The notes under the pieces are model-generated. The model ran no database searches and had not been told where the DNA came from. It worked only from the letters and a program-made list of their open reading frames with translations. From contig JBAQNJ010000001.1 of NCBI GenBank assembly GCA_049303675.1, positions 278,994 through 342,993 of the forward strand: a stretch of 64,000 nt of DNA. The letters run 5' to 3'. The position numbers and the translations under genes were made by a program. The DNA comes from Microgenomates group bacterium. Its GTDB lineage: Bacteria > Patescibacteriota > Microgenomatia > UBA12405. Shown here in pieces: positions 15,882-62,385 of this stretch (positions are counted from its first letter, which is position 1; each line of letters begins with the position of its first letter).

Positions 15882-16574
15882 ATGTCCACTATTTTTCTCA
15901 AAGGCCAGAAATACACTTACCAAGTATCTCGAAAAGCAATCAGCTCCATTACTCTAAAACTAAAATCCCGCCGTTGTTTTATGATGTCCGTCCCCCTATT
16001 TACTCCACAGTTCATGATCAACAACTTTTTACATGAACATACCGACTGGCTTGTCAATAATTCCTCAAAACTAACACCTCAAAAAACCCTCAGAAGGACA
16101 AAACAACTCCAAATTCTTGATAATAGTTATCAATTAATCATCACAAAAACACTGAGGGACTCCGTAGTAATATTCCATGATGAACACAAAATTTATGCAA
16201 ATACCACCTCACTGTCCAACTCTTATCTCAAAAAACTATTTGATACCAAATTTCGCCCCCTATCCTTATCTCTCATCACCCAAGAGATCTCTGATTTGTC
16301 GACTAAACATAGTTTTACTGTTGGCAAGATATCTGTCAAAAACACCACTTCTCGTTTCGGTTCTTGTTCTAGTACCAACAATCTAAATTTTAATTGGCAA
16401 ATAATATTTTTGCCCCGACCCATTTTTATCCACATTCTTCTTCACGAGTTAACTCATACAATCCATCACAATCACTCCTACAAATTTTGGGATCAATTAT
16501 CCCAGTTTGACCCAGACTGGCATTCTCATCGCCAGTATCTTCGCACCCACGCCAGTCTCCATTTTTTGATCTAA
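15882..16574 (+). CDS. YgjP/DUF45-family metal-dependent hydrolase (M48-like)
   Basis: LLHELTHTIHHNHSYKFW = HExxHxxxxNH signature. Confidence 0.7.
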   Translation: MSTIFLKGQKYTYQVSRKAISSITLKLKSRRCFMMSVPLFTPQFMINNFLHEHTDWLVNNSSKLTPQKTLRRTKQLQILDNSYQLIITKTLRDSVVIFHDEHKIYANTTSLSNSYLKKLFDTKFRPLSLSLITQEISDLSTKHSFTVGKISVKNTTSRFGSCSSTNNLNFNWQIIFLPRPIFIHILLHELTHTIHHNHSYKFWDQLSQFDPDWHSHRQYLRTHASLHFLI

Positions 16575-20245: not shown

Positions 20246-20512
20246 ATGCAAATAATGTATTATGTCTATATTTTAAAAAGTTTGGTTGACGGAAAAATTT
20301 ATACAGGTTTTACTTCTGACCTAAAGCACCGATATCAACAACATTTAGACGGAATGGTTTTTTCGACCAAAAATCGTCGACCACTTAAACTAATTTATTA
20401 CGAAGCTTTTTTATCAAAAATAGATGCAGCAAAACAAGAAAAGTATCTAAAGTCAGGTGGTAAAGCAAAAATTGATTTAAAAACAAAAATAAAAAATAGC
20501 TTAGAACTTTGA
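20246..20512 (+). CDS. GIY-YIG nuclease domain protein
   Basis: MYYVYILKSLVDGKIYTGFTSDLKHRYQQHLDG...KYLKSGGKAK; GIY-YIG with conserved R/H and E-bearing region. Confidence 0.65.
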   Translation: MQIMYYVYILKSLVDGKIYTGFTSDLKHRYQQHLDGMVFSTKNRRPLKLIYYEAFLSKIDAAKQEKYLKSGGKAKIDLKTKIKNSLEL

Positions 20513-20531: not shown

Positions 20532-20603
20532 CCGGTGATAGCAAAGCGGTTATGCGTCGGTCTGTAAAACCGATCTAGGTAGGTTCAACTCCTACTCACC
20601 GGA
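20532..20603 (+). tRNA. tRNA-Tyr(GUA), class-I-like (short variable loop, C1:G72)
   Basis: Manual cloverleaf: acceptor CCGGTGA/TCACCGG, anticodon stem TCGGT/ACCGA loop CTGTAAA (anticodon GTA), V-loop TCTAG, T-arm GTAGG-TTCAACT-CCTAC, discriminator A. Confidence 0.7.
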
Positions 20604-20611
20604 CATAATTT

Positions 20612-24119: not shown

Positions 24120-25617
24120 TGTACTAAGAGTTTGATCGTGGCTCAGGGTAAACGCTGGCGATGTGCCTAAGACATGCAAGTCGAACGGGATTCATTATCT
24201 TCACAAAGTTTCTAATTTTAGTGATTTTGTGAAGATAGTGAGTTTAGTGGCGAACGGGTGAGTAATGAGTACGAACGTACTCTCAAGCGGAACATAGCCC
24301 ACCGAAAGGTGGAGTAATTTTCCATAGTCTCGCAAGAGTAAAGATGCAAATCACTTGAGAAGCGGCGTACTTGCCACCAGCTAGTTGGTAGGGTAACGGC
24401 CTACCAAGGCTATAACGGCTAACGGCTCTTAGCGGAGAGTCCGTCACAATGGGACTGAGACACGGCCCATACTTCTACGGAAGGCAGCAGTTAGGAATCT
24501 TGCGCAATGGACGAAAGTCTGACGCAGCGACATCGCGTGAAGGATGAAGGCCCTCGGGTCGTAAACTTCTTTTATTGTGCCATGAAGGCATTTTGAATCA
24601 ACAGCTACTAACTACGTGCCAGCAGTCGCGGTAATACGTAGGCTGTAAGCGTTACCCGGTTTTATTGGGCGTAAAGCGTCTGTAGGTGGTTTTGTAAGTC
24701 TTGTTTCAAAGACCCCAGCTTAACTGGGGGCAGGGGCAGGATACTGCAAGACTAGAGTGATATCGGGGTTACTGGAATTTTTAGTGTAGGGGTAAAATCC
24801 GTGGATACTAAAAAGAACACCAAGCGCGAAGGCGGGTAACCAGGTATTTACTGACACTCAGAGACGAAAGCTAGGGTAGCCAATCAGATTAGAGACCTGA
24901 GTAGTCCTAGCTGTAAACTATGTATGTTAATTCTCTGTAATTTATTATGGGGGATGTAAGCTAACGCGTTAAACATACCGCCTGGGGAGTATAGCCGCAA
25001 GGCCGAAACTCAAACGAATTGGCGGGGAGGCGCACAACCAGTGGAGCATGTGGTTCAATTCGATACGAAGCGATGAACCTTACCTGGGTTTGAAATGTAT
25101 CTGCAAACCCCCAGAAACGGGGGAATCCTTAGAGGGTGATACACAGCTGTTGCATGGCTGTCGTCAGCTCGTGACGTGAGTTGTTCTCTTAAGTGAGGTA
25201 ACGAGCGCAACCCCCATCCGGTGTTATTGTGTCACCGGAGACTGCCTAGCATTATTTTGTTAGGAGGAAGGAGGGGACGACGTCAAGTCAGCATGATGCT
25301 TATGTCCAGGGCTACACACATCCTACAATGAGGAAGACAATGGGTCGCGAAACCGCGAGGTGGAGCCAATCCCACAAACTTCCTCTCAGTTGGGATTGCA
25401 GGCTGAAACTCGCCTGCATGAACCCGGAATTGGTAGTAATCGCGCATCAGCAGCGCGCGGTGAATACGTTCTCGCCTCTTGCACACACTGCCCGTCAAAT
25501 CAGCAAAGTTGAGGGCACCTGAAGCTTGGCCTTTGGCCGAATCAAGGTGAATTCAGCGATGAGGGTTAAGTCGTAACAAGGTATCTGTACTGGAAGGTGC
25601 AGATGGATCACCTCCTT
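24120..25617 (+). rRNA. rrs: 16S ribosomal RNA
   Basis: AGAGTTTGATCGTGGCTCAG at 24127; GTGCCAGCAGTCGCGGTAATAC; 3' end GGATCACCTCCTT at 25605-25617. Confidence 0.95.
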
Positions 25618-25721
25618 TGAGGATTTATCCGTATTCCAATTTATTGGATATCGGATCATGAATCGAACTCTTTCTGGTACTAACATTTTTGGCTTTAAAT
25701 AAAATAGTGGTTGAATAAAAT

Positions 25722-36155: not shown

Positions 36156-36566
36156 ATGAGGTACTTCAATCGAGATTCACTCGACTACGAGTTCAAAGAC
36201 AAGTACGAAGCAGGCCTCGTCCTCACTGGTTCTGATGCCAAATCTCTCCGGACTCAGGGAGTCCTCTTCAATGGCTCCAAAATCGAGATAATTGATGGTA
36301 TTCCTACAGTTTTCAATCTGACTATCGAGCCCTACAAGTATTCCCAAAACCAATCGATCGACACCACTCGGGAACGAAAAATCTTATTATCGCAGAGGGA
36401 AATAGCCAAGTTAATTAGTCTCCGCAATCAAAAATATATGATCATCCCCATCAGTATATTTTTGAAGCACAATTGGTTCAAAATGGAAATTGGTGTCGGC
36501 CGCAAGCTCCGCAAATACGAAAAAAGAGAAAAAATCAAAGCCAAGGATTCTCTACGTCACTCCTAA
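36156..36566 (+). CDS. smpB: SsrA-binding protein SmpB
   Basis: DKYEAGLVLTGSDAKSLR...KILLSQREIAKL...MEIGVGRKLRKYEKREKIK. Confidence 0.85.
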   Translation: MRYFNRDSLDYEFKDKYEAGLVLTGSDAKSLRTQGVLFNGSKIEIIDGIPTVFNLTIEPYKYSQNQSIDTTRERKILLSQREIAKLISLRNQKYMIIPISIFLKHNWFKMEIGVGRKLRKYEKREKIKAKDSLRHS

Positions 36567-38892: not shown

Positions 38893-39132
38893 TTATACAA
38901 AATGTTTCTTGGCAAAAGCTATTCCCGACCCTGTTTTAAGATATTTCTCAAATTTATATGCGATATATTTGTCATTAAATGCAAAATACACCTTTACTTT
39001 CCAGGGTTTATAAAATTGTGTTGCGGGTACTTTTCCTTCATTGTGCATTTTAATCCGCTCTTTTAGGTCTTCAGTACATCCTACATACCTCCGTCCGTAC
39101 TTATTTGTAAGTATGTAAACATAAGAAAACAT
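38893..39132 (-). CDS. GIY-YIG nuclease domain protein (paralog of 20246..20512)
   Basis: MFSYVYILTNKYGRRYVGCTEDLKERIKMHNEG...KYLKTGSG. Confidence 0.65.
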   Translation of the reverse strand: MFSYVYILTNKYGRRYVGCTEDLKERIKMHNEGKVPATQFYKPWKVKVYFAFNDKYIAYKFEKYLKTGSGIAFAKKHFV

Positions 39133-39206: not shown

Positions 39207-39246
39207 TATACGAAAAACGCGCCTTTGTATACACAAAAGCGCGCGC
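39207..39246 (-). terminator. Intrinsic terminator after tmRNA candidate
   Basis: Minus strand GCGCGCTTTTGTGTATACAAAGGCGCGTTTTTCG: long GC-clamped hairpin + T5. Confidence 0.6.
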
Positions 39247-39678
39247 AGGAGGAGATGCTCGGTATTGAGCCGAGGTCCAAAGTGGACTATAAAAAACGTC
39301 TACAAGCTTAATTTACTTTATCCTACACTTTCAACAACTAAAGTAAACGAAAAGTGTTGAAATGTCGATTATTGAGGGCATTACCCCTCTCTTAAATCCA
39401 CGATCTAATCGAGAAGATCGGGACAGCATTCTAGTTTAATTTACACTAGCTAGTCTTCTCTAGAAAAGGGGACTAACTAATGGATGATTCTGTTTAGGCA
39501 AGAGCCCAAACAGGAGCCTTAGAAGCTAGAGCGCCTTTTACAGCGTTTGCAACTTTGGTTAAATCAACACCAAAAGTATTTTTGGCATGTTTGTTTTTGA
39601 CCCTGTTTAACGACTCAATGGATCAAAGTCGGCTTGCGGTTTTTTAAGGTACTCACCTTGTCGATGCAATACATCTCC
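39247..39678 (-). ncRNA. ssrA: tmRNA (ssrA) candidate
   Basis: Minus strand: 5' GGAGATG-TATTGCATCGACAAGG (cf. GGAUUCGACGGG), internal tag ORF GCA AAC GCT ... TAA = ANAVKGALASKAPVWALA*, 3' GGAC-CTCGG-CTCAATA-CCGAG-CATCTCC (T-arm + acceptor strand complementary to 5' GGAGATG) then terminator; smpB 2.7 kb away. Confidence 0.55.
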
Positions 39679-39720
39679 AAGTTATAGAACTACATATTCT
39701 ACCAATAATCAGCCCAAAAA

Positions 39721-40065
39721 TCAACCTTTTTTGTAAAACCTACTTACAGGTTTTACATTTTTCGGAAGAATTTCTCTGGAGACCACATCCCCAGGTCTAA
39801 AATTATCACCTTCAACTACAACTGATATAACTGGTCTATAACAAGCGAAATCTTCTTTTTTCCATACCAACACTTTTCCGAGAGACAATGTTTGTCTCAC
39901 CGGCCTACCATTTTCAAAAGATGTCCCCGTTCCAATTACTTCTATAGTTTTTTCGAGTGCACGCTCCATAATTCCGTCATCCATTCCTGCCAATTTTCCT
40001 TCTCGTTCCCACTTGTCCCATTGAGCTCTATTTTTAGGATTTGCTTTTGATTCATTCATAATCAA
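39721..40065 (-). CDS. Hypothetical protein
   Basis: 114 aa ORF. Confidence 0.35.
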   Translation of the reverse strand: MIMNESKANPKNRAQWDKWEREGKLAGMDDGIMERALEKTIEVIGTGTSFENGRPVRQTLSLGKVLVWKKEDFACYRPVISVVVEGDNFRPGDVVSREILPKNVKPVSRFYKKG

Positions 40066-41039: not shown

Positions 41040-41666
41040 ATGTCTCTTCTATTCGATCTTCTCTTTCCCCGTACCTGCGCCGGCTGTGGTCGAGTCGGCC
41101 ACTATCTTTGTCGGGATTGTCAGTCAAAACTTGTTTATCAAAGTGTTTATCAAAACAATCGTCTCTCTCTGTTTCGTTATCATGGTGCCATCAAGCAATT
41201 AATTACCGATCTCAAATTTAGCTTTGTCAGCGATATTGTCCCTGAAATAGGGGACATTCTGGTTTACGGGCTAGTCAACAAATATCCCCACCTTCTTCGC
41301 TATTGGCAGCAAAATAATTATATTTTAGTCCCTATTCCCCTTTATGAATCTCGCCACAATTGGCGCGGATACAATCAATCAGAATTGTTATGTCAAAAAT
41401 TATCAGCCGAATTAAACCTATCCTACGAACCAAATCTATTGGTCCGCACTCGCAACACCATCCCCCAGACTAGTATTCGCGACCGCCGCCTTCGTAAAAC
41501 CAACATCAATTCTTCATTTTCGTTTCGTTCCGATTTATTAAATTCTGTTAAATTATTAAATTTTATTATTGTAGACGACGTCTACACCACCGGTTCCACC
41601 ATTCATTCTGCTGCTTCCGCTTTTCCTAGAGGCTCAAATCTCTGGGCTCTCACAATAGCTGGATAG
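41040..41666 (+). CDS. comF: ComF-family phosphoribosyltransferase-domain protein
   Basis: N-terminal CAGCGRVGHYLCRDC zinc finger; C-terminal IIVDDVYTTGSTI PRTase motif; contains 36-nt AT repeat in-frame. Confidence 0.75.
   Translation: MSLLFDLLFPRTCAGCGRVGHYLCRDCQSKLVYQSVYQNNRLSLFRYHGAIKQLITDLKFSFVSDIVPEIGDILVYGLVNKYPHLLRYWQQNNYILVPIPLYESRHNWRGYNQSELLCQKLSAELNLSYEPNLLVRTRNTIPQTSIRDRRLRKTNINSSFSFRSDLLNSVKLLNFIIVDDVYTTGSTIHSAASAFPRGSNLWALTIAG
41522..41557. repeat. 36-nt AT-rich repeat copy a
   Basis: gatttattaaattctgttaaattattaaattttatt inside comF. Confidence 0.75.
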
Positions 41667-46455: not shown

Positions 46456-46589
46456 AAAATCTTGCATTCTATTTTTAGTTTCGCTATTATTCTTAGAGTG
46501 TTTAGAAGACCCTTAGGGGTTGACAACCGAGTCCGCCAAATGGTCCACGGTGCCCACTAAAACACGCCTTATCAATTAAAAGGAAAAAT

Positions 46590-47690
46590 ATGAATTATCC
46601 TCAATTTTCGTCCGAATCTGTCTGTGAAGGTCACCCCGACAAAGTCTGTGACCAAATTAGTGATGCTATCTTAGACGCTGCCTATACCCTCGACCCTATG
46701 GCTCGGGTCGCTATCGAGACTTTGGCTACGGTCAACAAATTAGTTTTAGCCGGAGAAGTTACTATTAATGGTACTCTCGATTATGCCGCTATTGCCCGCC
46801 AAAAGATCGCCGAGCTCGATTTTCTCGATTCAGTTTTAGATTTTACCGACAAATGCGACATCGAAATTGCTGTCCACACACAGTCACCCGATATTGCTCA
46901 GGGCGTCAATGCTGGTGGAGCCGGTGATCAGGGGATGATGTTTGGTTATGCTTGTCGCGAGACACCCGAACTAATGCCCCTTCCCATTTCCATGGCTCAC
47001 AAATTATGCCGTCAAATGGACGAATTACAGCGCATTCATCGTTGGATGCGCCCCGATGGCAAGTCTCAGGTTACCGTTCGTTATGATGGTCAGACTCCGG
47101 TAGCCATCGAGCGAGTTGTCTTGGCCAAGCCCATGAATTACGACCTCGCCCCTGCTGATTATTCTCACTTTTTCTATCAAAATGTCATTGTTCCAGTCTT
47201 AGCTGAATACAAGTTTGAAATCAGTGAAGACAAAATGATTCTCAATGGTACCGGTAAATGGACCATTGGTGGCCCCTCCGCCGATACTGGCGTTACTGGC
47301 CGCAAAATTGTCGTTGATACTTACGGTGGTATGGGTCGTATTGGTGGTGGTTGCTTTTCCGGCAAGGATACTACCAAGGTCGATCGCAGTGCCGCCTACG
47401 CCGCTCGCTATATTGCCAAAAATATTGTGGCTGCAGGTCTCGCCGATCGCTGCGAGGTTCAATTAGCCTATGCTATTGGTCAAGTCCTGCCTGTTGGTCA
47501 ATCTATTGAGACTTTTGGCACTGCCAAGTCAGAATTAAAGGTAATCGAAGATTTTGCATGGAAATTACTCGAATTATCGGTCGCTGGTATCAACAGTGGT
47601 CTCAATCTCCGCGTGCCAATGTATGCCAAAACCGCCCGCTATGGCCACTTTGGCCATCCCGAGTATCCATGGGAGAAGATAAAAGGCTAA
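46590..47690 (+). CDS. metK: S-adenosylmethionine synthetase
   Basis: FSSESVCEGHPDKVCDQISDAILDA; GGGCFSGKDTTKVDRSAAYAARYIAKN. Confidence 0.9.
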   Translation: MNYPQFSSESVCEGHPDKVCDQISDAILDAAYTLDPMARVAIETLATVNKLVLAGEVTINGTLDYAAIARQKIAELDFLDSVLDFTDKCDIEIAVHTQSPDIAQGVNAGGAGDQGMMFGYACRETPELMPLPISMAHKLCRQMDELQRIHRWMRPDGKSQVTVRYDGQTPVAIERVVLAKPMNYDLAPADYSHFFYQNVIVPVLAEYKFEISEDKMILNGTGKWTIGGPSADTGVTGRKIVVDTYGGMGRIGGGCFSGKDTTKVDRSAAYAARYIAKNIVAAGLADRCEVQLAYAIGQVLPVGQSIETFGTAKSELKVIEDFAWKLLELSVAGINSGLNLRVPMYAKTARYGHFGHPEYPWEKIKG

Positions 47691-60184: not shown

Positions 60185-60257
60185 GGGTGGATAGTTCAGT
60201 TGGTTAGAATGCTGGTCCCCAAAACCGGCGACAATGGTTCAAGTCCATTTCCACCCA
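60185..60257 (+). tRNA. tRNA-Trp(CCA)
   Basis: Acceptor GGGTGGA/TCCACCC, anticodon stem CTGGT/ACCGG, loop CCCCAAA (anticodon CCA; C at 33), T-arm AATGG-TTCAAGT-CCATT, discriminator A. Confidence 0.7.
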
Positions 60258-60259
60258 CT

Positions 60260-61222
60260 ATGATTAATTATAATCTGACAGTAGATAGGATAAAAAACAG
60301 CCTGCAAAACGGGAGATGTTTCTATGGTGAAACCTATGATTCTCATGGCATGACAATTGACTCTCTAAAGTACTATTTTTTCTTATCTCTACTACATCTG
60401 ATATTAGCTAAATCAAATATCAAAACTGAGTCGACGGTGATAATCGCCGATATTGCCTCGGGTATCAACAAATCTAGTCAAAAAATAAATTGCGATATAG
60501 ATGAGGTGGGGAAAAATCGTCTAGATTATTGTGAAAAAATAAAAAAATATTTTAATTTACCTATCAAGTTTGTTTTAATGAGCAACTTTTTTGCCACCAA
60601 TCCCATTGCAAAACTAGTTGAACAATTCGAAAATGTTGGTCATAGCAACCCCAAAGTGACTGAACTTTTAGCAAAAACAGTACTCCAAAATAAAATTAAA
60701 CAAGAAAATGATTCGGGCTTTCGTTATGGTTATGAAGAAATTGCTACCGGATCATTTTTTAATATCAAAATTGGCCCACCGCGAGAAAAATATTACGACC
60801 AAGCCGCCAAAATTATTTGCAAAAAATTAAAACTGAATCAATTAAAAAGTATTTATCTGACACCCACGTTTCCTTTGGGTCAAGATTTTTCCTATTTCCT
60901 AACTCACCCCGAAATAGAAGAATTTGGACTTACACCATACAAAGCCGGTAGTAACCAAATGCAGGATTTCAGAATAACTATAAATACAACCACGATAGAA
61001 AAAGTTGAGCAACTAATCAACGATACTTACATCACTACTAATCCAAATTTACCAAATCCAATATTTGATTTACTGTTTATTGCCAATATGGCAGAAAAGT
61101 TAAAAAACAAAGAATATGAGTTTCCAGTTTACAAAAATAATATTTATATAAATCCAAAAAAACTAAAGAGTTTTGCTTTCCAGAAAATAACTAGGTTATT
61201 GATTGATCTAAAAAATCTATGA
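60260..61222 (+). CDS. Hypothetical protein
   Basis: ORF track 60200..61222 overlaps tRNA; first ATG after tRNA at 60260. Confidence 0.4.
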   Translation: MINYNLTVDRIKNSLQNGRCFYGETYDSHGMTIDSLKYYFFLSLLHLILAKSNIKTESTVIIADIASGINKSSQKINCDIDEVGKNRLDYCEKIKKYFNLPIKFVLMSNFFATNPIAKLVEQFENVGHSNPKVTELLAKTVLQNKIKQENDSGFRYGYEEIATGSFFNIKIGPPREKYYDQAAKIICKKLKLNQLKSIYLTPTFPLGQDFSYFLTHPEIEEFGLTPYKAGSNQMQDFRITINTTTIEKVEQLINDTYITTNPNLPNPIFDLLFIANMAEKLKNKEYEFPVYKNNIYINPKKLKSFAFQKITRLLIDLKNL

Positions 61223-62385
61223 ATAGCCCACAGGCAATTGCCCAATCACATCAAGAATATCAATCTAAATTAACTATCAAGAAAAAAATTGGGGATTATT
61301 ACTTGGATCAAACCACCAAAAATGGTCTCTCTAGCCTTGATAAAATTAAGGCCTATTTACCTCTTGATCTACAGCCACTTCATTTTCGACGCAGCATCGC
61401 TATCGCCCATCTTGATCTTGAACCAATCATCGAAAAAATTGCCAAGAATCAGGAGTTTGTTATTGTTTCCGGTCTCAATCCGTCTTCTCCCTTACACCTC
61501 GGTCATAAGGCCCTGTTTGATTTACTCCTAAGTTTACAAGGACTAGGAGCCAGAGTATTTATTCCTCTGACCAACGACGAGTCGCTAGTTGATGGTAAGG
61601 TTAGTTCTTTGGCTCAGAGTCTAAACATTGCCAAAACCTCAATTCTCCCCGACATTATCAATTTTGGATTTGATCCGGACAAAACCCATATTTTTATTGA
61701 CTCCGAATATCCCCAGCTCTACAACTTCGCTATGTATCTCAGCCAACATATTTCCTTTGGACAACTTCGTCAAGTCTTTGGTGACGATTCACTGACTACT
61801 CCTGGCCAAATTTTTTATCGTGGAGTCGTTCAAATGGCGCAGATCCTGTTACCCCAACTCCCTGAATTTGGTGGTCCAAAAGTGACTTTGATTCCAGTTG
61901 GTATTGACCAGCACCCATATATATTATTGGCTCGTGATGTTGCCAAAAAAATTGGTATGATTCCACCGTCTGAGTTGGTTATTAGATTCTTGCCTAGCTT
62001 ACTAGGGCCAGAAGATAAAATGTCGGCATCAAAACCAAACACTGCTATTTACCTTAGTGACACTCCAGAGGCAATTCACAAAAAAATTAGTCGAGCCTAT
62101 ACCGGTGCTGTTTCAGCCCTTGATGTATATCAAGAACGGGGTGGTATTCCCGAAATATGCTCAGTTTTTACTCTTCTAAATTTTCATCATCCCGACGGTG
62201 TATTTGTCGAAAATATTAAACAAAGTTATTTGCATGGTCTTATTACCATGTCTGAGTTGAAAGAACTTACAACAGCTTTTATTACCGAATTAGTCACCCG
62301 CCACCAGCAAAAAAGCCCGCCTACCTCTGATCAAATCAATAAGTACATTTTAACTACACCATTAAAATCACTTTTAACCCTATGA
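61219..62385 (+). CDS. trpS: Tryptophan--tRNA ligase, archaeal/eukaryotic type
   Basis: Class I HIGH variant SPLHLGH and KMSAS (EDKMSASKP) as in archaeal/eukaryal TrpRS; adjacent tRNA-Trp. Confidence 0.7.
   Translation: MNSPQAIAQSHQEYQSKLTIKKKIGDYYLDQTTKNGLSSLDKIKAYLPLDLQPLHFRRSIAIAHLDLEPIIEKIAKNQEFVIVSGLNPSSPLHLGHKALFDLLLSLQGLGARVFIPLTNDESLVDGKVSSLAQSLNIAKTSILPDIINFGFDPDKTHIFIDSEYPQLYNFAMYLSQHISFGQLRQVFGDDSLTTPGQIFYRGVVQMAQILLPQLPEFGGPKVTLIPVGIDQHPYILLARDVAKKIGMIPPSELVIRFLPSLLGPEDKMSASKPNTAIYLSDTPEAIHKKISRAYTGAVSALDVYQERGGIPEICSVFTLLNFHHPDGVFVENIKQSYLHGLITMSELKELTTAFITELVTRHQQKSPPTSDQINKYILTTPLKSLLTL

What the first reader, a model, noticed from the sequence alone, without database searches (positions are those of the whole stretch)
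39247..39678. Unannotated structured RNA between GIY-YIG and a hypothetical gene: tmRNA candidate with tag ANAVKGALASKAPVWALA
This 590-bp ORF-free region has higher GC than its surroundings. On the minus strand, 5' GGAGATG pairs with 3' CATCTCC. The 3' strand is preceded by a T-arm-like CTCGG-CTCAATA-CCGAG and followed by a strong terminator. There is a tmRNA-like UUGCAUCGACAAGG near the 5' end, and an internal resume-codon ORF GCA AAC GCT GTA AAA GGC GCT CTA GCT TCT AAG GCT CCT GTT TGG GCT CTT GCC TAA that ends in ALA. smpB is at 36156. Deviations from the expected form are a T-loop starting with C rather than U, a discriminator U, and CCU instead of an encoded CCA.
Basis: partly seen in the sequence, partly recalled or inferred. 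Interest (0 to 1): 0.55.

Follow-up and report, generated by a model that had tools for sequence, protein, structure and literature searches.

The report
tmRNA lacking the alanine identity pair
This is the genuine ribosome-rescue RNA (tmRNA) of an uncultured Shapirobacteria bacterium, but it and about 50 relatives have lost the two nucleotides said to be invariant in every tmRNA because they direct loading with alanine, so how this clade loads its tmRNA is an open question.

Summary
Window 39247-39678 (-) is a full-length tmRNA gene: Rfam RF00023 scores 82.5 bits (gathering score 47, E 1.7e-30) at exactly those coordinates. It has its own promoter and terminator, and smpB lies 2.7 kb away. Across 43 relatives, 97 base pairs in 14 helices, including four pseudoknots, are 96.8% paired, and 61 pairs show compensatory changes.

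The encoded tag is AKNTFGVDLTKVANAVKGALASKAPVWALA (30 aa).

Acceptor pair 3:70 is A-U, not G-U, and the discriminator is U, not A. Reviews describe G3:U70 plus A73 as "always present" in tmRNA. Among 69 distinct tmRNAs I collected:
- 50 Shapirobacteria sequences have A3:U70 with U73 or G73, never A73.
- 4 sequences nested inside that clade have G3:U70, and all have A73.
- 15 outgroups have G3:U70 and A73, as do 12 further ARAGORN-called outgroup tmRNAs.

There are no mixed states. The most likely explanation is that a synthetase other than AlaRS charges these tmRNAs, and SerRS is the best candidate. A G:U-independent AlaRS remains a serious rival. The clade's tRNA-Ala genes and its own AlaRS could not be retrieved, and only one tRNA-Ser came from a probable relative of uncertain affiliation.

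The parts
39247..39678 (-). tmRNA (ssrA) gene, 432 nt as encoded. Mature RNA nt 1 is 39678.
   Evidence: RF00023 scores 82.5 bits (gathering score 47), E 1.7e-30, model positions 1-374. Homologs lie next to smpB in 24 loci. Rfam hits the relatives at the same boundaries.
39696..39724 (-). Promoter-like site: TTGATT, 17-nt spacer, TG-extended TAGAAT. It implies a leader of about 10 nt removed by RNase P (the leader and RNase P step are inferred).
   Evidence: A TGnTATAAT motif is conserved at this place in the relatives.
39672..39678 (-). 5' strand of the acceptor stem, GGAGAUG. A3 is at 39676.
   Evidence: This strand is invariant apart from position 3 in 69 distinct sequences.
39632..39660 (-). 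5' strand of the P2 connector helix (nt 19-47).
   Evidence: Helices 2-4, 99.5-100% paired.
39599..39631 (-). Pseudoknot PK1: hairpin nt 48-68, plus loop nt 55-59 pairing with nt 76-80.
   Evidence: Helices 5 and 6. In helix 6, 3 of 5 pairs show compensatory change.
39494..39586 (-). Tag reading frame: resume codon GCC (39586-39584), 30 codons encoding AKNTFGVDLTKVANAVKGALASKAPVWALA, stop TAA (39496-39494).
   Evidence: Infernal alignment of the resume codon. The frame is conserved in every Shapirobacteria-clade tmRNA examined. Third-position variation dominates in the first 12 codons.
39429..39482 (-). Pseudoknot PK2 (nt 197-250).
   Evidence: Helices 7 and 8: 11 of 14 and 6 of 6 pairs show compensatory change.
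39365..39423 (-). Pseudoknot PK3 with an internal hairpin (nt 256-314).
   Evidence: Helices 9, 10 and 11: 9 of 9, 3 of 5 and 5 of 5 pairs show compensatory change.
39312..39362 (-). Pseudoknot PK4 (nt 317-367).
   Evidence: Helices 12 and 13: 8 of 8 and 8 of 9 pairs show compensatory change.
39278..39307 (-). 3' strand of the P2 connector helix (nt 372-401), including the conserved AAGCUUGUAGA.
   Evidence: Helices 2-4. The pattern was used for the metagenome scan.
39258..39274 (-). T-arm CUCGG / CUCAAUA / CCGAG, with a non-canonical C54 in the loop.
   Evidence: Helix 14: 100% paired, 4 of 5 pairs compensatory. T-loop states are tabulated.
39251..39257 (-). 3' strand of the acceptor stem, CAUCUCC. 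U70 is at 39253 and pairs with A3.
39250..39250 (-). Discriminator base N73 = U. Canonical tmRNA has A.
39247..39249 (-). Encoded CCU in place of CCA. The 3' end must be trimmed and completed by the CCA-adding enzyme (inferred).
   Evidence: The window's tRNA-Tyr and tRNA-Trp do not encode CCA either.
39217..39244 (-). Intrinsic-terminator-like hairpin (12 bp, 6 of them G-C) followed by a T-run.
36156..36566 (+). smpB, the protein partner of tmRNA (136 aa, divergent).
   Evidence: Pfam SmpB 108 bits. NCBIfam SmpB 110 bits, below its cut-off of 130.
41040..41666 (+). ComF-family gene, a neighbour of tmRNA in the window, in most Shapirobacteria loci and in most outgroup Microgenomates loci held. 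Context only.

Best explanation
This is the functional ssrA gene of a Candidatus Shapirobacteria bacterium (Microgenomates, CPR).

Shown:
- It is a one-piece tmRNA with a tRNA-like domain, a P2 connector helix and four pseudoknots.
- It encodes a 30-codon tag, AKNTFGVDLTKVANAVKGALASKAPVWALA.
- It has promoter-like and terminator-like sites of its own.
- In this clade the acceptor pair is A3:U70 and the discriminator is U or G. No G:U pair occurs elsewhere in the acceptor stem.
- Positions 3 and 73 change only together.

Inferred, general mechanism: together with SmpB, the RNA enters stalled ribosomes, accepts the nascent chain on its aminoacylated 3' end, and switches translation to the tag frame.

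Inferred, charging: under the established AlaRS rules this RNA is not an alanine acceptor, so another anticodon-independent synthetase loads it. SerRS is the best candidate, for four reasons:
- The stem GGAGA/UCUCC keeps the G1-C72 and G2-C71 pairs conserved in bacterial tRNA-Ser. It matches the first five pairs of several tRNA-Ser genes of related Microgenomates.
- The tmRNA connector helix projects in the direction of the long variable arm that SerRS uses.
- A non-A discriminator blocks LeuRS, the only other anticodon-independent enzyme.
- A single G3-to-A change turns the ancestral GGGGAUG into this stem.

The first residue added to rescued proteins would then be Ser (or another amino acid) instead of Ala. 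The confidence of 0.5 refers to charging by a synthetase other than AlaRS. That this is a real, functional tmRNA is about 0.97. Serine specifically is about 0.35.
For: It is a real tmRNA:
- RF00023 hits here and in 10 relatives.
- The covariation-supported structure has 96.8% of cells paired against 39-54% in slid controls, 61 pairs with compensatory change, and 0 of 500 shuffles reaching the observed values.
- The tag frame is conserved with third-position variation.
- Promoter-like and terminator-like sites flank it, and smpB and ComF are linked to it.

Alanine identity is lost across the clade:
- 50 of 50 distinct A3:U70 sequences, from separately assembled genome and metagenome contigs, have U73 (26) or G73 (24).
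- All 19 G3:U70 sequences, and 12 further ARAGORN-called outgroup tmRNAs, have A73.
- Fisher's exact test gives p = 2e-17 overall and 3e-6 within the clade. Neither value is corrected for phylogeny.

The two positions are coupled:
- The in-clade G3/A73 sequences L028, L089 and L155 are nested among A3 lineages in both the tmRNA and the SmpB trees. The fourth, L175, could be placed only in the tmRNA tree because its contig has no SmpB.
- Their nearest A3 relatives are 79-85% identical.
- G73 and U73 swap between tmRNAs that are 97% identical.

Literature:
- Pair 3 is 'completely conserved as G-U', alanine is not obligatory for trans-translation (a histidine switch worked in vitro), and the connector helix points like a class II variable arm (PMC3985003).
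- Serine identity is anticodon-independent, G1-C72 and G2-C71 are conserved, G73 is dispensable in vitro, and G73 acts in vivo as an antideterminant against LeuRS and TyrRS (PMC9976931).

Local tRNA-Ser acceptor stems are GGAGACG, GGAGAGG and GGAGGGA, each followed by G73. T-stem pair 51:63 is G:C in 4 of 4 in-clade G3 forms but in only 3 of 50 A3 forms.
Against: - No aminoacylation data exist.
- I could not retrieve tRNA-Ala or AlaRS from a confirmed Shapirobacteria genome, and the one tRNA-Ser (L190) comes from a probable relative of uncertain affiliation. So it is assumed, not shown, that the clade's tRNA-Ala keeps G3:U70 and that its tRNA-Ser stems match.
- Half of the A3 tmRNAs, including this one, have U73, whereas every tRNA-Ser seen has G73.
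- From memory, not verified here: E. coli tmRNA mutated at G3:U70 is reported as uncharged rather than serylated.
- The AlaRS proteins of related CPR bacteria differ at both G:U-reading residues. E. coli D400 is E or Q in 118 of 120, and N303 is S in 39 of 120. Altered AlaRS recognition is therefore plausible.
- The number of independent coupled transitions may be as low as two.
- The resemblance to the tRNA-Ser stem is one mutation away from the ancestral tmRNA stem, so it could be coincidental.
Confidence: 0.5

Rival explanations
1. It is a functional tmRNA that is still charged with alanine. Shapirobacteria AlaRS, or a second AlaRS-like enzyme, would recognise the tRNA-like domain without G3:U70, through helix shape, other contacts or SmpB assistance. 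The change at pair 3:70 would then be tolerated drift.
For: - The AlaRS proteins of related CPR bacteria are short (about 620-640 aa, no C-Ala domain). They differ from E. coli at both residues that read G3:U70: D400 is E or Q in 118 of 120, and N303 is S in 39 of 120.
- G:U-independent minihelix charging has been reported for Nanoarchaeum equitans AlaRS (PMC11392972, listed).
- Bilaterian mitochondrial tRNA-Ala has lost G3:U70 (PMC9976931).
Against: - It does not explain why A73 is absent from all 50 A3 forms yet present in all 4 in-clade G3 forms. Nor does it explain why G73 and U73 interchange freely while A73 and C73 never occur.
- The same AlaRS substitutions occur in lineages whose source names are Pacebacteria or Patescibacteria group. 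They are therefore not specific to the A3 clade, although the tmRNAs of those particular organisms were not examined. The outgroup CPR tmRNAs I did examine are all canonical.
- A regular A-U pair abolishes charging by the AlaRS enzymes that have been characterised (established knowledge; PMC3985003).
Confidence: 0.33
2. It is a functional tmRNA charged by a synthetase other than AlaRS or SerRS. Examples are CysRS or GlyRS for the U73 forms, or a dedicated or unknown enzyme.
For: U73 is the discriminator of bacterial tRNA-Cys and tRNA-Gly (established knowledge). Half of the A3 forms have U73.
Against: - G73 and U73 alternate between near-identical tmRNAs, so one enzyme must accept both.
- Most other synthetases need an anticodon, which tmRNA lacks.
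- The Gly identity pair C2:G71 is absent. The stem has G2:C71.
Confidence: 0.12
3. It is a decaying or non-aminoacylated ssrA, either a pseudogene or an RNA with a role that needs no charging.
For: The alanine determinants are lost, the T-loop is non-canonical, and ARAGORN fails to detect it.
Against: - Structure and tag frame are conserved across the clade under clear purifying selection: compensatory changes in 61 pairs, open in-frame tags with typical ...YALA or ...LAFA ends, and third-position variation.
- smpB is retained next to it.
- Translating the tag requires peptidyl transfer to a charged 3' end (established mechanism).
Confidence: 0.04

Closest known systems
Canonical one-piece bacterial tmRNA (SsrA, Rfam RF00023), e.g. 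E. coli 10Sa RNA
   Same: Homologous over the full length. It shares the 7-bp acceptor stem and T-arm, the sheared G-A region and P2 connector, PK1 followed by the resume codon, a tag ending in ALA, PK2-PK4, the SmpB partner, and inferred RNase P and CCA-adding maturation.
   Different: - Pair 3:70 is A-U instead of the 'always present' G-U, and N73 is U (or G in relatives) instead of A.
- Canonical T54-A58 is absent (C54 here; U54/U58 in many relatives).
- The D-loop has one G instead of GG.
- CCA is not encoded.
- The tag is long, at 30 codons.
- ARAGORN cannot find it.
Engineered E. coli tmRNA with histidine identity (Nameki et al. 1999, cited in PMC3985003)
   Same: It shows that a tmRNA charged with a non-alanine amino acid can still carry out trans-translation. 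That is the state proposed here.
   Different: That was an in vitro laboratory construct. Here the loss of alanine determinants is natural and fixed across a whole bacterial class, and the amino acid is unknown.
Bacterial class II tRNA-Ser as a SerRS substrate
   Same: It has G1-C72, G2-C71, A3-U70, R4-Y69 and R5-Y68, as in the tRNA-Ser genes of related Microgenomates (GGAGACG, GGAGAGG). Recognition is anticodon-independent. G73 is present in 24 of 50 A3 tmRNAs. A helix projects where the long variable arm would be (PMC3985003).
   Different: - It is not a tRNA and has no D-arm or anticodon arm.
- The window copy has U73.
- The 'variable arm' is the roughly 30-bp P2 helix bound near SmpB.
- Serylation is untested.
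Alanine systems that do without G3:U70 (bilaterian mitochondrial tRNA-Ala; N. equitans AlaRS minihelix charging)
   Same: These are precedents for AlaRS working without the G3:U70 pair, which is what the main rival explanation requires.
   Different: They occur in organelles or archaea and involve tRNA-Ala itself. There is no precedent for tmRNA, and none shows the coupling between positions 3 and 73 seen here.

Membership tests
tmRNA (RF00023) | Covariance-model score above the curated gathering score over the full model | tested here: met
   82.5 bits against 47, E 1.7e-30, model positions 1-374. Relatives score 51-113 bits.
tmRNA (RF00023) | tRNA-like domain: a 7-bp acceptor stem closed by the 5' and 3' ends, plus a 5-bp T-stem with a 7-nt loop | tested here: met
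   Helices 1 and 14 are 100% paired, and the T-stem has 4 of 5 pairs with compensatory change.
tmRNA (RF00023) | G3:U70 wobble pair, the AlaRS determinant described as completely conserved | tested here: not met
   A3:U70 here and in 50 of 54 distinct in-clade sequences. No G:U pair lies elsewhere in the stem.
tmRNA (RF00023) | Adenosine discriminator (A73) | tested here: not met
   U73 here. Among A3 forms, 26 have U73, 24 have G73 and none has A73.
tmRNA (RF00023) | Canonical T-loop (T54-A58; GUUCRANY) | tested here: not met
   The loop is CUCAAUA (C54, A58). Only 1 of 50 A3 forms has U54/A58. tRNAs of the same genome have canonical loops.
tmRNA (RF00023) | Internal tag reading frame that starts without an initiation codon after PK1 and ends in a hydrophobic, Ala-rich C-terminus | tested here: met
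   GCC resume codon in the conserved AU|GCY motif. Tags are 28-42 codons, always end in TAA, and finish with ...WALA...YALA or ...LAFA. Variation is mainly at third positions.
tmRNA (RF00023) | Pseudoknots PK1-PK4 and the P2 connector helix | tested here: met
   Every helix other than the invariant ones shows compensatory change.
tmRNA (RF00023) | SmpB partner encoded in the genome | tested here: met
   smpB at 36156-36566. smpB and tmRNA are linked in 24 loci.
tmRNA (RF00023) | Aminoacylation and tagging activity | not testable with these tools
   Needs biochemistry or proteomics.
AlaRS substrate (alanine identity) | G3:U70, or a translocated G:U in the acceptor stem, plus A73 | tested here: not met
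   All seven pairs are Watson-Crick (G-C, G-C, A-U, G-C, A-U, U-A, G-C), and N73 is U.
AlaRS substrate (alanine identity) | The cognate AlaRS of this clade has canonical G:U-reading residues, and tRNA-Ala keeps G3:U70 | tested here: inconclusive
   No AlaRS or tRNA-Ala from a confirmed Shapirobacteria genome was retrieved. Related CPR AlaRS proteins deviate at the equivalents of D400 and N303.
SerRS substrate (serine identity, bacterial type) | G1-C72 and G2-C71, with an acceptor stem like the local tRNA-Ser genes | tested here: met
   GGAGAUG/CAUCUCC compared with tRNA-Ser GGAGACG, GGAGAGG and GGAGGGA in Gottesmanbacteria- and Amesbacteria-like loci and in L190. This is resemblance only.
SerRS substrate (serine identity, bacterial type) | G73 discriminator | tested here: not met
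   The window copy has U73. G73 is present in 24 of 50 A3 relatives. G73 is reported as dispensable in vitro for E. coli SerRS.
SerRS substrate (serine identity, bacterial type) | Long variable arm of the right orientation, and actual serylation | not testable with these tools
   The literature states that the connector helix points like a class II variable arm.

The most novel reading that the evidence does not exclude
Shapirobacteria carry a natural tmRNA identity switch. The tmRNA is loaded with a non-alanine amino acid, most plausibly serine by SerRS, so every rescued protein is joined to its tag through that residue. The RNA can toggle in evolution between two discrete identity states, {A3:U70, G/U73} and {G3:U70, A73}, by two coupled point changes. 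This would be the first natural exception to the rule that tmRNA is always alanylated.
Probability: 0.45. Interest if true: 0.85.

Novelty: new variant of a known kind. Interest (0 to 1): 0.7.

Why it matters
Reviews state that tmRNA is always charged by AlaRS and that G3:U70 plus A73 is present in every tmRNA sequence. That invariance has even been used to argue for the antiquity of the alanine minihelix code. A whole bacterial class that keeps a clearly functional tmRNA without either determinant breaks the rule.

Either outcome is informative. One possibility is that trans-translation naturally runs on another amino acid. The other is that a bacterial AlaRS has evolved G:U-independent recognition.

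The two discrete, interconverting states offer a natural experiment on how tRNA identity sets evolve. The question is directly testable with two transcripts and two recombinant synthetases.

There is also a practical consequence. Annotation by ARAGORN alone would miss ssrA in this clade, because ARAGORN finds no tmRNA in any Shapirobacteria locus tested. Shapirobacteria genomes could then wrongly appear to lack tmRNA.

Tried and rejected
- ARAGORN on the window and on 60 loci found no tmRNA in any Shapirobacteria locus. In-silico mutagenesis showed that detection needs a canonical T-loop plus one more canonical feature, so the miss is a tool limitation and not evidence against the gene.
- Alternative registers of the acceptor stem do not restore a G:U at pair 3. 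The second CUCC gives only 4 bp, so this was rejected by inspection.
- I tried to reach a Shapirobacteria Arg-Ser-Arg tRNA cluster through its flanking 176-aa protein from the Gottesmanbacteria-like locus L032. Only Gottesmanbacteria homologs were returned.
- I walked the source genome outward from both window ends, about 8-9.5 kb on each side. This yielded tRNA-Ile(UAU), tRNA-Met, tRNA-Cys and an intron-containing tRNA(CAU), but no Ala or Ser.
- A further step through a partial protein did not return the genome's own protein. Its homologs led to L190, which has a tRNA-Ser but is of uncertain affiliation, and to L193, which has an AlaRS but is probably Pacebacteria-like.
- The AlaRS residue check proved uninformative for the clade question, because the deviations are general among these CPR AlaRS proteins.
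- Literature searches for any reported tmRNA without G3:U70, or for tmRNA in Microgenomates or Shapirobacteria, found none in the held library.
- A-to-I editing at position 3 was considered and set aside. From memory (Musier-Forsyth et al. 1991), I:U lacks the 2-amino group that AlaRS needs.
Full report
WHAT IS THERE

On the minus strand of window 39247-39678, the Rfam tmRNA model RF00023 matches end to end (model positions 1-374). It scores 82.5 bits against a gathering score of 47, with E = 1.7e-30. ARAGORN reports only tRNA-Tyr and tRNA-Trp in the window and no tmRNA.

The gene sits between a small GIY-YIG ORF (38893-39132) and a 114-aa hypothetical ORF (39721-40065). smpB lies at 36156-36566 and matches Pfam SmpB at 108 bits. 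A promoter-like site (TTGATT, 17-nt spacer, TG-extended TAGAAT; 39724-39696) ends 18 nt upstream of the mature 5' G. A 12-bp hairpin followed by a T-run (39244-39217) starts three bases after the encoded 3' end.

An exact-protein look-up of SmpB places the window on NCBI contig JBAQFH010000001.1 (998 kb, GCA_049287145.1). Its closest SmpB relatives, at 60-87% identity, mostly come from records titled Candidatus Shapirobacteria.

RELATIVES AND STRUCTURE

- Using SmpB as an anchor, I fetched 61 loci from species-representative genomes.
- nhmmer with the window RNA found a homolog in 22 of the 27 Shapirobacteria loci, in the source contig itself and in one outgroup locus.
- A metagenome scan with the conserved 3' motif AAGCTTGTAGANGTTTNTT added 120 contigs.
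- After trimming and de-duplication there are 69 distinct full-length tmRNAs.
- Rfam hits ten of the relatives at precisely the boundaries I derived.

On an alignment of 43 in-clade sequences (A1), RNAalifold recovers the acceptor stem, the three-part P2 connector, the PK1-PK4 hairpins and the T-arm. After I added the four pseudoknot stems by hand, 97 pairs in 14 helices are 96.8% paired. Controls with the 3' partner slid by 1-3 columns give 39-54%. Sixty-one pairs carry compensatory changes, and 0 of 500 shuffles reach any observed measure. This is a selected, folded tmRNA and not a chance match.

THE TAG

Infernal aligns the window's UGCC to the consensus U|GCA resume codon. All 54 in-clade sequences have a conserved AU|GCY at this point. 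Translating from the GCY gives an open frame of 28-42 codons that always ends in TAA just before PK2, despite many indels.

The window's encoded tag is AKNTFGVDLTKVANAVKGALASKAPVWALA (39586-39494). ARAGORN picks the same short tag once the RNA is mutated enough for it to be detected.

THE ANOMALY

The acceptor stem is G1-C72, G2-C71, A3-U70, G4-C69, A5-U68, U6-A67, G7-C66. It is followed by U73 and then CCU. There is no G:U pair anywhere in the stem, and no alternative register creates one.

Reviews state that the third pair is 'completely conserved as G-U' (PMC3985003). [quoted passage not shown]

This is not an assembly error, because it holds across the clade:
- 50 distinct in-clade sequences have A3:U70, with N73 = U (26) or G (24), never A or C.
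- 4 in-clade sequences (L028, L089, L155, L175) have G3:U70, and all four have A73.
- All 15 outgroup relatives collected with the same motif have G3:U70 and A73.
- So do 12 further outgroup tmRNAs that ARAGORN called, from Amesbacteria, Saganbacteria, WOR-1, Parcubacteria, Saccharibacteria and Mycoplasma.

No mixed state occurs. Fisher's exact test gives p = 2e-17 overall and 3e-6 within the clade, uncorrected for phylogeny.

In both a tmRNA tree and an SmpB tree, the in-clade G3/A73 forms are nested among A3 lineages. In the SmpB tree, L028, L089 and L155 group with the A3 sequences L114 and L173. L175 has no SmpB on its contig and appears only in the tmRNA tree. Their nearest A3 relatives are 79-85% identical.

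Parsimony therefore gives one switch at the base of the clade and at least one reversal, with both positions changing each time. In contrast, G73 and U73 interchange between tmRNAs that are 97% identical (L017 and L020).

Further deviations:
- The T-loop lacks canonical T54-A58 in 49 of 50 A3 forms.
- The D-loop analogue has a single G.
- CCA is not encoded, although the window's tRNA-Tyr and tRNA-Trp do not encode it either.
- T-stem pair 51:63 is G:C in all four in-clade G3 forms but in only 3 of 50 A3 forms. I cannot interpret this with confidence.

HOW IT MOST LIKELY WORKS

Shown: the RNA has every structural and coding feature needed for trans-translation, it is under purifying selection, and it lacks both alanine determinants in a pattern where positions 3 and 73 are coupled.

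Inferred: because the tag is evidently translated, the 3' end must be aminoacylated.

Established rules say that an A3:U70 helix is not an AlaRS substrate. Only AlaRS, SerRS and LeuRS ignore the anticodon in bacteria. LeuRS requires A73, which is precisely the base that is excluded here.

SerRS fits the pattern:
- It needs G1-C72 and G2-C71, which are present.
- It reads a long variable arm largely by shape.
- It is indifferent to N73 in vitro, while G73 serves in vivo to repel LeuRS and TyrRS (PMC9976931).
- The tmRNA connector helix leaves the tRNA-like domain in the direction of a class II variable arm (PMC3985003).
- tRNA-Ser genes from Gottesmanbacteria-like and Amesbacteria-like loci and from L190 begin GGAGACG, GGAGAGG or GGAGGGA and have G73. 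The tmRNA begins GGAGAUG.
- A single G3-to-A change converts the ancestral GGGGAUG into this stem.
- Alanine is not mechanistically required, since a histidine-accepting tmRNA works in vitro.

I therefore favour a natural identity switch, at about 0.5 for any non-alanine amino acid and about 0.35 for serine specifically.

THE MAIN RIVAL

AlaRS in this clade may have become independent of G:U.

I could not obtain AlaRS or tRNA-Ala from a confirmed Shapirobacteria genome. One AlaRS reached by chance (L193, 624 aa, no C-Ala domain) has Glu at the position of E. coli Asp400. Among its 120 closest homologs, named Pacebacteria or Patescibacteria group where a name is given, that position is E or Q in 118 of 120. 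The Asn303 equivalent is Ser in 39.

So CPR AlaRS proteins deviate at the G:U-reading residues in general. That keeps the rival alive, but it does not single out the A3 clade. The rival also does not explain the strict exclusion of A73 from A3 forms or its return in G3 forms. I give it about 0.33.

Charging by some other enzyme gets about 0.12. A decaying or uncharged RNA gets about 0.04 and is contradicted by the conservation data.

WHAT WAS NOT ACHIEVED

- tRNA-Ala, tRNA-Ser of confirmed affiliation, and AlaRS of Shapirobacteria were not retrieved, despite several routes.
- The whole genome could not be scanned for a second ssrA. Only about 82 kb was examined.
- The trees are simple neighbour-joining trees without support values, so the number of independent transitions (at least two) is uncertain.
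- No expression or aminoacylation data are available.

VERDICT

As a tmRNA the locus would be routine. What makes it notable is a clade-wide, evolutionarily coupled loss of the alanine identity set that the literature treats as invariant. I found no report of this in the held library.

It is a new variant of a known kind, and it leaves a sharply testable question: which amino acid is loaded, and by which synthetase?

Noticed in passing
window 20532-20604 (+); also L011 667-739 and L023 35-107: tRNA-Tyr(GUA) is 73 nt with a C1:G72 first pair and a 5-nt variable loop. That is the archaeal/eukaryal type, not the bacterial class II tRNA-Tyr with G1:C72 and a long arm. It implies an archaeal-type TyrRS recognition mode in this bacterium.
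   Followed up: partly
window 61219-62385 (+) and L186 10918-12381 (about 1 kb past the window's 3' end): There are two tryptophanyl-tRNA synthetase genes about 1.5 kb apart, just downstream of tRNA-Trp (60185-60258). The second is 487 aa, with an N-terminal YbaK/ProRS-INS-type editing domain fused to a bacterial-type TrpRS, which is an unusual architecture.
   Followed up: partly
L186 about 16146-16446 (same genome, about 5.5 kb past the window end): A group I intron (RF00028, 78.6 bits) interrupts the anticodon loop of a tRNA with anticodon CAU. ARAGORN does not call this tRNA.
   Followed up: partly
window 46493-46599 (+): A SAM-I/IV riboswitch match scores exactly the gathering score (41.1 bits) and overlaps the start of the 366-aa ORF at 46590-47690. 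A homologous hit in the Shapirobacteria locus L008 scores 47.2 bits.
   Followed up: no
window 24120-25618 (+): The 16S rRNA gene stands alone, with no 23S rRNA or spacer tRNA-Ile/tRNA-Ala beside it. It carries an insertion of about 35 nt near model position 80.
   Followed up: no
Tag frames of L007, L008, L013, L014, L029, L030, L090, L091, L103, L108, L122, L145 and others: About 40% of Shapirobacteria tmRNA tags end in Cys (...GAAC...LAVC...AVAYC) rather than the usual Ala or Val. An Amesbacteria tag also ends ...GAIC.
   Followed up: no
L097 5905-6339 (-): The 5' end reads GGGGAUGGAGAUG. A G3-type copy of the acceptor strand lies immediately upstream of the A3-type one, so two alternative 5' ends are conceivable.
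   Followed up: no
L193 2295-4169 and proteins P0164-P0283: CPR AlaRS proteins of about 620-640 aa lack the C-Ala domain. E. coli Asp400 is replaced by Glu or Gln in 118 of 120, and Asn303 by Ser in 39 of 120. These are the two residues that read G3:U70.
   Followed up: partly
window 38893-39132 (-), window 20249-20470 (+), L032 11727-12032: Small GIY-YIG ORFs (about 75-100 aa) repeatedly sit next to tRNA or tmRNA genes: beside the tmRNA, beside tRNA-Tyr, and beside tRNA-Ser in the Gottesmanbacteria-like locus.
   Followed up: no
L006 10988-11481 (-): This Shapirobacteria tmRNA is 494 nt. It has an extra insertion of about 30 nt in the PK1 region and another of about 30 nt in PK4.
   Followed up: no
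window 36156-36566 (+): SmpB is short (136 aa) and scores below both NCBIfam SmpB cut-offs (110 against 130, and 99 against 119), although it is well above the Pfam threshold. Annotation pipelines that rely on those cut-offs could fail to name it.
   Followed up: no
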